Assembly (NCBI RefSeq): GCF_944388125.1
Contig: NZ_CALXHO010000003.1
Origin: an uncultured Gemmiger sp.
GTDB lineage: Bacteria; Bacillota; Clostridia; Oscillospirales; Ruminococcaceae
Strand: one strand, 5' to 3'
DNA: 64,000 bases
Made by a program: the position numbers and the translations under genes. Numbering within the stretch: the first letter of the stretch is position 1; each line of letters starts with the position of its first letter. The notes below the pieces were generated by a model, which worked only from the letters and a program-made list of their open reading frames with translations, was not told the origin of the DNA and ran no database searches. Below, piece after piece: positions 45,180 through 48,161 of this stretch.

Positions 45180-45363
45180 GGGAAAAATCCTTTCCTGAAA
45201 GTGAGATGCCGGAAAATAAGGCAGTATGGCAGGTTTTGCCGCAATTGCCGGAATTGAAAATATTGTAGCATGATCCGGCAATGCTGTCTACCGAACAAAA
45301 AGCCCCGACTGTATCAGCCGGGGCAAAATATATCTTATAGGTAATGAATGCTGGGAAAACAGG

Positions 45364-45843
45364 TTACCGGGCTACGGCCTCCTTGAGCCGGGCGAGATCC
45401 TGTGCATCGGGATGGCTGAGTGCCTGCTCGAAATTCTCAAGCATGGCGGTGCGGCGGGGGCTTTCCTCCATGGCAAGATAGCGGCTGCGGACAGCCTCGG
45501 GCATTTTGCCCTGGCACATATAGCTGCCCACCACATTGGCATCCTTCAGGTTTTGCTGTACCCGTTGAAGAATCTGTGCAAAATAGGCCGGAGCCCCGCC
45601 AAACCCGGCGGTGCCGAACAGAAAAACCTTCTGCCCGGTGACGCTCTGCAAGAAACTGGAGATGGTTTCATCGCAGGTGCCATTGTCAGTCCAGAAGCCG
45701 ACGTAGATGGTGTCGGCTTCCAGGGCGCGGGCATCCGGTGCGCCAAAATAGAGACAATCCCCGGCAGGCAGAGCCTCCCGGATGGTCTGCGCCAGCAGAG
45801 CTGTGTTGCCGGTACGGCTGCTGTATACGATGGAGTAACTCAT
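45364..45843 (-). CDS. bilS: Flavodoxin-like protein BilS
   Basis: YSSRTGNT FMN loop, GFWTD.G, FGTAG, CQGK, HPD; ATGA overlap with bilR. Confidence 0.85.
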   Translation of the reverse strand: MSYSIVYSSRTGNTALLAQTIREALPAGDCLYFGAPDARALEADTIYVGFWTDNGTCDETISSFLQSVTGQKVFLFGTAGFGGAPAYFAQILQRVQQNLKDANVVGSYMCQGKMPEAVRSRYLAMEESPRRTAMLENFEQALSHPDAQDLARLKEAVAR

Positions 45844-46952
45844 TTTGTTTCCTTCCTTTCATAAATGCAATGGACGCCGCGGTGAGCCATCATGCCGCCG
45901 AGGCATTCCTTGTTGCAGCGGACGCAGCGGTGAAGATTCTGTACCTGCCCGGCCAATACCTTATTGGGCCAGTCGGGATCAGCGGTGAGCTGACGGCTCA
46001 TGGCGGCGCAGTCGATACGGCCGCAGGCCAGCTGCCGCTCAATGAAGTCCGGATCCGTCAGACCGCCCACACCGCAGATGGGCAGCTGGGTAAAGCGCCG
46101 GACTTCATCACAGAATTTAAGAAAACATCCTTCCTCTCCAAAAGCGGGATGGTTTTTCGGCGGGATGGTGTCGCTCAGATCCCCATGATTGGCCAGCGTG
46201 ACATGAAAGCTTGTGACGCCGGCCTTTTCCAGAAGGGGCACAAAAACCGACAGCTCCGATTCTGTCACGCCGGCATTCCCGTAATGAGGGTCTTCCTGGC
46301 GGACAGCGAGTTTATAGTCGATGGGCAGATCAGGCAGGCAAAGGCGGATGGCGGAGACCGCCTCCACAGCAAAGCGGGCGCGATTTTCCGGGCTGCCGCC
46401 GTAGCGGTCGGTGCGGTGGTTGAAGACGGTGGAACTGAAACTGCCGCACATACGGTCGCCGTGAACCTGTACCATATCAAAGCCAGCCTGTACGGCCAGC
46501 TCCGCTGCTGTGCCGAAGGCCTCGGTGATCCGGGCAATCTGCTTTTCCGGCAGGTTTGTGATGTAGGGGGCGATCTGCTCATTGAGCAGGGGCCGGAGCT
46601 CCTCCATGGAAATGCGATGGGTGAGGACGCCGGGGATATAGCGGAGCATCCCCTTCAGGTTGGAATCCGACTGATGCAGCTGCGCACACAGCTTGCAGCC
46701 TTCCCGGTGGACAACGTCAGCCATTTCCCGGTAATAAGCCTGGCCCTTGCGGGTATACAGGGAAGGCCCGAATCCGTGCGGCAACACCGGCACATCACCG
46801 ATGATGATCATGGCACAGCCGCCCGCTGCAATTTTTTGCAGGCGCTGCAAGGTCTCTTCCCGGGACAGGCCCAGGCTGGTTGGAGCAAAGATGATGCGGT
46901 TTTTCAAAGTCAGCCCGCCATAATTCAGAGGGCCGCGGATGGTTTCATACAT
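45840..46952 (-). CDS. bilR: Bilirubin reductase BilR, short form (OYE/2,4-dienoyl-CoA reductase-like barrel)
   Basis: LKNRIIFAP; H164-G-D166-R167 (HGDR) motif; RTDRYGGS.ENRARF; Fe-S motif CVRCNKEC...C; bilQ-bilR-bilS order. Confidence 0.88.
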   Translation of the reverse strand: MYETIRGPLNYGGLTLKNRIIFAPTSLGLSREETLQRLQKIAAGGCAMIIIGDVPVLPHGFGPSLYTRKGQAYYREMADVVHREGCKLCAQLHQSDSNLKGMLRYIPGVLTHRISMEELRPLLNEQIAPYITNLPEKQIARITEAFGTAAELAVQAGFDMVQVHGDRMCGSFSSTVFNHRTDRYGGSPENRARFAVEAVSAIRLCLPDLPIDYKLAVRQEDPHYGNAGVTESELSVFVPLLEKAGVTSFHVTLANHGDLSDTIPPKNHPAFGEEGCFLKFCDEVRRFTQLPICGVGGLTDPDFIERQLACGRIDCAAMSRQLTADPDWPNKVLAGQVQNLHRCVRCNKECLGGMMAHRGVHCIYERKETK

Positions 46953-47362
46953 GTAGGATCGGCTTCTTTCTGAAATGCTTTTGCCAAGAGGGAAAACAAC
47001 TGCTGCTGTTCTGCATCGCTCAGCCGGGACAACGTCTCCTGATCCCAGTCAAAAAAGACCTGATGGCTTACGGCGAAAGCCTCGCGGCCTTTTTCACTCA
47101 GATCCAGATGGTAGGCGCGGCCGCTTTTTTTCCGGGTGAGAAAGCCGTCCTCCACCAGCTTGGTGACGCATCGCTGGGAATATCCCCAGTCCAGGTGAAG
47201 GGCAGCGGTCAGTTCCGCCTGCGTACAGCCTGGGTGCTTGCCCACGTAGATCACAGGAAACAGAGAACCAAAACTCAGTCCCAGCGCCTGCAGACGCTGG
47301 GTGGTGTAAGCGACAAAGCTTCGGTGAAATACCGTGGCGTAGTAAGCCAGTGTCTGGAACAT
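46925..47362 (-). CDS. bilQ: MarR-family regulator BilQ
   Basis: AAAGGAG RBS; wHTH HPGCTQAEL...LDWGYSQRCVTKLVEDGFL; first gene of the bil operon. Confidence 0.85.
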   Translation of the reverse strand: MFQTLAYYATVFHRSFVAYTTQRLQALGLSFGSLFPVIYVGKHPGCTQAELTAALHLDWGYSQRCVTKLVEDGFLTRKKSGRAYHLDLSEKGREAFAVSHQVFFDWDQETLSRLSDAEQQQLFSLLAKAFQKEADPTCMKPSAAL

Positions 47363-47381
47363 CAAACAGTCAACTCCTTTT

Positions 47382-47425
47382 CTTGACTGGGTCAAGTATA
47401 GACCGGAAACTTGACAAAGTCAAGT
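47382..47425 (-). promoter_or_regulatory. bil operon sigmaA promoter overlapped by two palindromic operators
   Basis: TTGACT(47423-47418)-17-TATACT(47400-47395); CTTGAC-TGG-GTCAAG at 47382-47396 and CTTGAC-AAA-GTCAAG at 47410-47424. Confidence 0.78.
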
Positions 47426-47597
47426 ATAATTGCAAAAAAATAATGGACCAAATCACCAGAATCCGCAGCAAAATTTTTGACGGTGAAATGATGAAAAATC
47501 AGCAGCTCGGGCAGCATCTTGCCAAATCATGATGGCCGGCCTGGGATAGAGTATACAAAAAGACACCATTTCCGCACAATGTCGAAAATGGTGCCTA

Positions 47598-47680
<83 letters not shown>

Positions 47681-47783: not shown

Positions 47784-48050
47784 TTATATGCCAAACCAAT
47801 ACCGTCTCATCTTTTCAAGAAACTCAGGGGTAATGGGATAACCGGAGCTCTCTCCGATCACCGAATCTATACAACAATATGGACAGATGGCAGTGCCCTC
47901 TCTGTCGCAGTCGTTATCAGCAATGATCCAGCACTCGATTTCAGAAGGAGAAAAAATCTTCCCGCAGTGAAAACAGCCACAGACCTTATCCTGTTTGAGC
48001 TGCTTCATGTGGTTGTTGGAAAACCTGTGAGCCTCGATGTAATCTTCCAT
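47784..48050 (-). CDS. Small zinc-ribbon-like protein
   Basis: AGGAGG RBS; CGCFHC...AICPYCCIDSVI. Confidence 0.82.
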   Translation of the reverse strand: MEDYIEAHRFSNNHMKQLKQDKVCGCFHCGKIFSPSEIECWIIADNDCDREGTAICPYCCIDSVIGESSGYPITPEFLEKMRRYWFGI

Positions 48051-48161
48051 AAGAATGCCTCCTGCAAACACCGATCTTTTTAAAGACGGCGGGAAAAACT
48101 GTGCGGTCTCCCAAAACTGTTCATTTTATAAAGAGGAAGCCATAGGTTGACTGTAAAGACC

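What the first reader, a model, noticed from the sequence alone, without database searches (positions are those of the whole stretch)
47382..47430. Candidate BilQ operator: twin CTTGAC-N3-GTCAAG palindromes over the -10 and -35
Seen: CTTGAC-TGG-GTCAAG-TATA (47382) and ACTTGAC-AAA-GTCAAGT-ATA (47409), 28 bp apart. One overlaps the -10/+1 and the other contains the -35 of a TTGACT-17-TATACT promoter reading into bilQ. Known: MarR dimers autorepress via palindromes over their promoter and are released by ligands. Inference: a bilirubin/tetrapyrrole-responsive switch. I know of no published BilQ site; it could define the regulon and serve as a bilirubin biosensor part.
Basis: partly seen in the sequence, partly recalled or inferred. 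Interest (0 to 1): 0.8.

Follow-up and report, generated by a model that had tools for sequence, protein, structure and literature searches.

The report
Twin BilQ operator of bilirubin-reductase operon
Two matching DNA palindromes lie on the predicted promoter of a bacterium's bilirubin-reducing genes and recur in front of those genes in many relatives, so they are likely the binding site of the BilQ repressor, which would switch the genes on when it senses a bile pigment (untested).

Summary
Confirmed: exact CTTGAC-N3-GTCAAG at 47382 and 47410, on the -10/+1 and -35 of a TTGACT-17-TATACT consensus promoter ahead of bilQ-bilR-bilS (all above NCBIfam cut-offs). 79 of 80 BilQ orthologs have a site within 120 bp; the 80th has it ahead of an inserted gene. 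None of 32 other MarR genes has one. Where the operon is split, separated bilR, bilS and bilQ each keep their own site, as expected if BilQ acts in trans. The motif also pointed to a fourth candidate member, a 108-aa membrane protein with no Pfam or NCBIfam family, which this genome lacks. Against: binding and ligand are untested; two genomes keep the site with no BilQ found; one bilQ lacks it; long-form bilR genes lack it; an unrelated TetR subfamily uses the same outer core with a different centre. This is a textbook MarR-type autorepression design, but I found no published BilQ site or ligand. Biliverdin is as plausible an inducer as bilirubin. This scan reported the same operator on another genome (e1-5258375).

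The parts
47409..47425 (.). distal palindrome (ACTTGAC-AAA-GTCAAGT), contains the -35; predicted BilQ operator
   Evidence: PWM 34.7, best in the genome
47382..47396 (.). proximal palindrome (CTTGAC-TGG-GTCAAG), overlaps the end of the -10 and the predicted +1; predicted BilQ operator
   Evidence: PWM 26.8, second best in the genome
47418..47423 (-). -35 hexamer TTGACT (consensus match)
47395..47400 (-). -10 hexamer TATACT (consensus match; TATA part 86-95% conserved in 79 orthologs)
47374..47379 (-). ribosome-binding site AAGGAG of bilQ
   Evidence: read from sequence
46925..47362 (-). bilQ, MarR-family regulator, 145 aa
   Evidence: NF045593 158.9 bits; Pfam MarR_2; MarR fold, pLDDT 89.8
45840..46952 (-). 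bilR, short-form bilirubin reductase, 370 aa, HGDR motif; overlaps the end of bilQ
   Evidence: NF045592 552 bits, cut-off 425
45364..45843 (-). bilS flavodoxin, 159 aa; overlaps the end of bilR by 4 nt
   Evidence: NF045594 216 bits, cut-off 155
45302..45324 (-). intrinsic-terminator-like hairpin closing bilQRS
47561..47596 (-). terminator-like hairpin after the upstream tRNA-Leu (47598-47680), so bilQRS likely needs its own promoter

Best explanation
The two palindromes are likely operators for BilQ: a BilQ dimer is predicted to bind each one, cover the -35 and the -10/+1, repress bilQ-bilR-bilS including its own gene, and would let go on binding a bile pigment (bilirubin or biliverdin; ligand untested). 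Shown: the sequence, the promoter consensus, the gene identities, conservation, and that the site travels with bilQ, bilR, bilS and a 108-aa membrane-protein gene when these are separated. Inferred: direct binding and repression (about 0.87, from MarR precedent and co-distribution). Least certain: release by a bilin (about 0.55).
For: (1) 79 of 80 orthologs (56-94% identical) have a site at <=2 mismatches within 120 bp of bilQ. In 67 of 79 both sites are at <=2 mismatches, and in 40 both are exact. The exception, L078, has a twin site in front of a 483-aa ORF lying between promoter and bilQ. (2) The right arms are no promoter element, yet carry 1.0-1.9 bits per base; the middle of the spacer carries 0.05-0.2. 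(3) Split operons: L066/L231, L068/L234 and L063 (back-to-back promoters) have twin sites before both bilQ and bilR. G964 has them before bilR-bilQ and a lone bilS. In G624 the only two genome-wide matches to a relaxed single-site pattern are at bilQ and bilR. (4) Controls: 0 of 32 other MarR genes reach PWM 10 upstream, against 14 of 17 held-out BilQ operons at >=14 (one counted at its operon head). No twin site at non-BilR OYE paralogs among L237-L260. (5) In 43 bilR-positive genomes, twin hits at <=2 mismatches occur only in BilQ-positive genomes (9 of 19, 12 places) and in 0 of 24 others. (6) Unbiased scan of 251 genomes of the family: 23 hit, and the 12 loci with PWM >=20 all head bilQ, bilR, bilS or the membrane gene. 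(7) The recognition-helix motif DWG(Y/H)xxR is present in 80 of 80 orthologs. (8) G712 has short bilRS, no BilQ found and no site.
Against: No binding, start-site or expression data. G491 (lone bilS, one arm decayed) and G532 (intact twin before a broken bilR remnant) keep the site with no BilQ found. One BilQ upstream of a long-form bilR (L337/L274) has no recognisable site. Genus g237 (L317, L320) scores under 10. None of 25 long-form bilR loci with upstream DNA and no adjacent bilQ has a site within 1.5 kb, including three whose genomes encode BilQ elsewhere in g237, so BilQ does not evidently govern all bilirubin reduction. 37 of 120 metagenome twin sites sit beside a TetR gene instead. 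The genomes are related, so counts overstate independence. The PWM was trained on close relatives.
Confidence: 0.8

Rival explanations
1. BilQ binds the sites but responds to something other than a bilin (heme or porphyrin, a flavin or redox signal, a bile acid), or a ligand tightens binding as acyl-ACP does for FabT.
For: MarR ligand outcomes vary and must be found case by case (PMC5487221 passages). bilQ-bilS or bilQ alone occurs in genomes where no BilR above cut-off was found (14 of 20 selected genomes, many of them MAGs). One BilQ (L103) sits opposite an ABC exporter near a ferrochelatase gene, like the heme/PPIX sensor PefR. M. gnavus bilR induction by bilirubin is only log2FC 0.43.
Against: The only regulon members of known function are BilR and BilS. 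Substrate induction is the common logic for catabolic MarR regulators. The M. gnavus gene is the long form, reported without adjacent bilQ, so it does not test BilQ.
Confidence: 0.35
2. A different regulator binds the sites, for example the TetR (TetR_N + TetR_C_33) subfamily that has twin CTTGAC-N3-GTCAAG sites at its own promoters.
For: 37 of 120 metagenome twin sites lie next to such a TetR. Two genomes keep the site with no BilQ found.
Against: The TetR sites never have T after CTTGAC (0 of 148 arms) and mostly have a G/C centre (64 of 74). The bil sites have T in 163 of 252 arms and an A/T centre in 116 of 126. This genome has no ortholog of that TetR (best 28.5 bits against 178-242 for members; genome 87% complete). 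The site follows bilQ across three families.
Confidence: 0.07
3. The palindromes are a by-product of promoter sequence and shared ancestry, or act as RNA hairpins, and bind no repressor.
For: TTGAC is itself the -35 consensus, and the orthologs are related.
Against: The right arms are as conserved as the left while the flanks have diverged. The predicted start site lies inside the proximal palindrome, so neither palindrome would be transcribed whole. The sites persist before different first genes with different leaders.
Confidence: 0.04

Closest known systems
PefR and the pefAB/pefRCD operators, Streptococcus agalactiae (PMC2858704; passages read)
   Same: MarR repressor; inverted repeat present twice at its own operon and once at a separate target; overlaps the -10; released by tetrapyrroles (heme, PPIX)
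   Different: Different sequence (TAAAATAGTTCTCACGATAACTA); controls efflux pumps, not a reductase; shown by EMSA, which BilQ is not
HsmR, Clostridioides difficile (PMC12541388; passages read)
   Same: MarR-family tetrapyrrole (heme) sensor of a gut clostridium with a pseudo-palindromic site
   Different: Site ATTAGTTTGTATGCAAACCATT is unrelated; induces hsmA; ligand is heme; bilirubin and biliverdin are not mentioned in that paper
bilQRS operon (Hall et al. 2024, PMC10769871; passages read)
   Same: Same three genes in the same order; bilQ named there as a MarR regulator
   Different: No site, ligand or regulon appears in the passages found; the 108-aa membrane gene is not among the three genes named there
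E. coli MarR/marO and P. aeruginosa MexR twin operators (recalled; MexR also named in e1-5258375; not read here)
   Same: Two palindromes over promoter elements, autorepression, release by ligand
   Different: Other sequences and ligands; the fold search gives only 16-24% identity to solved MarR proteins
Unnamed TetR_C_33 subfamily with twin CTTGAC(A/G)-N-(T/C)GTCAAG sites (seen here)
   Same: Same 6-bp outer arms, 3-bp gap, twin layout 26-29 bp apart
   Different: Unrelated fold; divergent gene pairs with SDR, DUF2306 or long flavin oxidoreductase genes; different central bases

Membership tests
MarR-family autoregulatory operator (MarR/MexR/PefR type) | Adjacent gene encodes a MarR winged-helix protein | tested here: met
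MarR-family autoregulatory operator (MarR/MexR/PefR type) | Palindrome of about 15-22 bp in the regulator's own promoter, conserved in orthologs | tested here: met
   79 of 80 directly, 80 of 80 at the operon head
MarR-family autoregulatory operator (MarR/MexR/PefR type) | Site overlaps the -35/-10/+1, giving repression by occlusion | tested here: inconclusive
   Consensus TTGACT-17-TATACT is kept here and at six separated loci; start site not mapped
MarR-family autoregulatory operator (MarR/MexR/PefR type) | Site co-distributes with this regulator and not with paralogs | tested here: met
   exceptions G491, G532, L337
MarR-family autoregulatory operator (MarR/MexR/PefR type) | Direct binding of the dimer to the site | not testable with these tools
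   needs EMSA or footprinting
Tetrapyrrole-sensing MarR (PefR, HsmR) | Tetrapyrrole binding changes DNA binding | not testable with these tools
   no ligand data found
Tetrapyrrole-sensing MarR (PefR, HsmR) | Operator sequence of PefR or HsmR | tested here: not met
   published sites differ; it may work like them but is not their ortholog site
TetR_C_33 subfamily twin operator | A or G after CTTGAC, G/C centre, adjacent TetR gene, ortholog in the genome | tested here: not met
   centres here are TGG and AAA, the neighbour is bilQ, and no TetR ortholog was found in G000

The most novel reading that the evidence does not exclude
BilQ is a one-component sensor of linear tetrapyrroles (biliverdin and/or bilirubin) in gut bacteria, and its operator defines a four-gene regulon: bilQ, bilR, bilS and an unnamed 108-aa membrane protein that is a missing part of bile-pigment reduction (uptake, export, or holding the hydrophobic pigment at the membrane for BilR).
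Probability: 0.4. Interest if true: 0.72.

Novelty: new member of a known kind. Interest (0 to 1): 0.5.

Why it matters
Gut bilirubin reduction affects serum bilirubin and neonatal jaundice, and in the papers I could search nobody has described how short-form bilR is controlled. A defined 15-17 bp site with promoter geometry makes this testable with one EMSA and one reporter. If a bilin releases BilQ, the pair is a compact genetically encoded bile-pigment sensor. The motif also yields a concrete new candidate gene for the pathway, and suggests that long-form bilR is regulated in another way.

Tried and rejected
Further regulon members in this genome: PWM scan of G000 gave only the two sites above 21. 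The next, C6:14572 (20.5), is a single intergenic site with no partner; not accepted. The others lie at 15-17. AI-2E transporter after bilS: it has its own terminator/promoter boundary and follows bilS in only 3 of the 80 ortholog loci, L001-L003 (it lies upstream in 2 more); not part of the operon. A divergent promoter on the + strand: none found. Eleven of 23 hits in the 251-genome scan have PWM <20 and no bil gene, against 3 genomes with the reversed control pattern; treated as chance or other regulators. Three hits at 3 mismatches in BilQ-negative genomes lie by other regulators or transporters. Extra single sites in G563, G489 and G964 are not before bil genes. Three MarR control loci (L225, L228, L334) were dropped because short flanks misplaced the upstream window; L210 and L219 were not included. 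Seven BilQ loci that duplicate training sequences were left out of the held-out count. Expression: no RNA holder listed; no evidence either way. No BilQ relative on plasmids at E 1e-15. No close solved structure (best E 3.6e-8). The 108-aa protein has no Pfam, NCBIfam or named Atlas family. A wider profile search for distant BilQ relatives was not run, so range outside Clostridia is open. The M. gnavus bilR and bilV promoters were not examined. Literature: no paper with the motif strings in a relevant context; 'bilQ' with 'bilirubin' only in Hall et al. among relevant hits. PMC3616900 passages gave no FabT motif.

Full report
Observation. The window has exact CTTGAC-N3-GTCAAG at 47382 and 47410 and nowhere else. 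A minus-strand TTGACT-17-TATACT consensus spans 47423..47395: its -35 is the left arm of the distal palindrome, and its -10 runs into the proximal one. A start site 7 nt past the -10 would be about 47388, inside the proximal palindrome (inference). The genome has 4 exact sites at gap 3 in 2.57 Mb, and a PWM ranks these two first, at 34.7 and 26.8; the next scores 20.5.

Anatomy. Downstream lie bilQ (46925-47362), short-form bilR (45840-46952, HGDR motif) and bilS (45364-45843), each above its NCBIfam cut-off, with overlapping ends and a terminator-like hairpin at 45302-45324. Upstream, tRNA-Leu ends in a terminator-like hairpin. BilQ folds as a MarR protein (pLDDT 89.8; best PDB matches are MarR proteins at 16-24% identity).

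Conservation. A genome scan found 138 BilQ relatives and returned the best 80, 56-94% identical. 79 of 80 have a site at <=2 mismatches within 120 bp. Both sites are at <=2 mismatches in 67 of 79, at <=1 in 63 and exact in 40; the best-fit spacing is 28 bp in 65, 27 in 12 and 29 in 2. L078 has its twin site 1.5 kb upstream, before an ORF that lies between promoter and bilQ. The right arms, which are not promoter elements, carry 1.0-1.9 bits per base; the middle of the spacer carries 0.05-0.2. More distant BilQ proteins (23-51% identical in alignment A1) mostly keep degenerate versions: 14 of 17 held-out operons score >=14, while 0 of 32 other MarR genes reach 10. In low-GC genus g185 (8 genomes) the degenerate pair is 31 bp apart.

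Natural experiments. Where the operon is broken up, the pieces keep the site. Two Faecalibacterium genomes have twin sites before both bilQ and a separate bilRS (L066/L231, L068/L234). L063 has four sites forming back-to-back promoters into bilQ and bilR. G964 has twins before bilR-bilQ and before a lone bilS. G624 has variant sites before bilQ and a distant bilR, the only two matches in that genome to a relaxed pattern. Six such promoters keep TTGACT-17-TATACT. Among 43 bilR-positive genomes, 19 have BilQ above cut-off. Twin hits at 28 bp and <=2 mismatches fall in 9 of those 19 and 0 of the other 24; at 3 mismatches 3 of the 24 hit, and the reversed control also hits 3 genomes. In 251 genomes of the window's family, 23 hit a relaxed twin pattern (control 3). 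The 12 with PWM >=20 all head bilQ, bilR, bilS or the membrane gene below; the other 11 have none of these nearby.

A fourth candidate member. A motif-only hit in G563 heads a 108-aa hydrophobic ORF. Its homologs (49-56% identical) directly follow bilQ, bilR or bilS in nine other genomes or contigs. Strong homologs occur in 6 of 251 and 2 of 251 genomes of two families, all 8 of which encode BilQ. The four stand-alone copies each have a twin or degenerate site. Five weak homologs (37-61 bits) have none. The protein has no Pfam, NCBIfam or named Atlas family and was not found in G000, which is 87% complete. Its role is untested; pigment transport or membrane handling is my inference.

Results against. 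G491 and G532 keep a partly decayed or an intact site with no BilQ found; in G532 it precedes a broken bilR remnant, which fits a recent deletion. One BilQ before a long-form bilR has no site, and two g237 loci score under 10. None of 25 long-form bilR loci with upstream DNA and no adjacent bilQ has a site within 1.5 kb; many are internal to operons, so their promoters may lie further off. The outer core is therefore shared with an unrelated family. The classes differ inside: TetR sites have T after CTTGAC in 0 of 148 arms, bil sites in 163 of 252. G000 has no ortholog of that TetR. Related genomes inflate all counts.

Mechanism. MarR dimers commonly bind palindromes in their own promoters, repress by blocking polymerase and are released by early pathway compounds (PMC5487221 passages). 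Two sites 28 bp apart would hold two dimers over the -35 and the -10/+1. I put direct binding and repression at about 0.87 and release by a bilin at about 0.55. Biliverdin is a serious candidate: short BilR dominates in avian guts, and BilR-S reduces biliverdin directly (PMC13252198 passages). Bilirubin raises bilR in M. gnavus (10.64898/2026.06.10.731317, passages and section 7), but only by log2FC 0.43 (first part of its supplementary table), and that gene is the long form without adjacent bilQ, so it neither supports nor refutes a BilQ switch.

Known systems and novelty. The closest precedents are PefR (heme and PPIX release; repeat twice at its own operon; PMC2858704 passages) and HsmR (PMC12541388 passages); their sites differ in sequence. 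Hall et al. name bilQ as a MarR regulator only (passages). Searches for bilQ, for the motif strings and for bilR regulation found no BilQ site or ligand. The library lacks most subscription journals; I did not see the BilR evolution paper cited in PMC13252198, nor the other supplements, any of which could mention it. An earlier follow-up in this scan reached the same operator reading on another genome (e1-5258375); that is not independent evidence.

Verdict. A real, highly conserved feature, very likely the BilQ operator: a new member of a well-known kind, useful because it makes regulation of gut bile-pigment reduction directly testable and points to one new candidate gene. Interest 0.5.

Noticed in passing
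L342:1630-1956; L063:762-1088; L068:3510-3836; L277:3150-3476; L358: 108-aa membrane protein with no family, in bilQRS operons or alone behind its own twin site; all 8 genomes with a strong homolog encode BilQ.
   Followed up: partly
L081, L083, L090, L093, L108, L116 and others among L081-L200: A TetR (TetR_N + TetR_C_33) subfamily has twin CTTGACA-N-TGTCAAG sites between itself and divergent SDR, DUF2306 or long flavin oxidoreductase genes: same outer core as the BilQ site, unrelated protein fold.
   Followed up: partly
L103:2076-2636: A BilQ above cut-off (134.5 bits) with a perfect twin site lies opposite an ABC exporter and near a ferrochelatase gene, with no bilR or bilS in the 4 kb locus; a PefRCD-like layout.
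   Followed up: partly
L203:1925-2476: BilQ with a degenerate twin site is followed by an unannotated 183-aa protein; a 42% homolog also neighbours another MarR (L331). No BilR found in that genome.
   Followed up: partly
L328-L330, L332, L333 upstream regions: BilQ-like MarR proteins below cut-off in family f47 have their own twin AGTTG-N5-CAACT palindromes ahead of a roughly 460-aa gene.
   Followed up: no
L265-L267, about 100-170 bp before long-form bilR: Three ATCAA(A/G) stretches resemble isolated right arms of the BilQ site in genomes that encode BilQ elsewhere; PWM below 12.
   Followed up: no
window 47369-47373: A further TTGAC half-site follows the ribosome-binding site here and in many of the closest orthologs.
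   Followed up: no
L026, L029, L036, L050, L054, L060, L062, L065, L077: bilQ-bilS operons with the site but no bilR between them; no BilR above cut-off was found in those genomes.
   Followed up: partly
window 47784-48071 (-): 95-aa ORF with CxxC motifs and no Pfam or NCBIfam match, upstream of tRNA-Leu.
   Followed up: no
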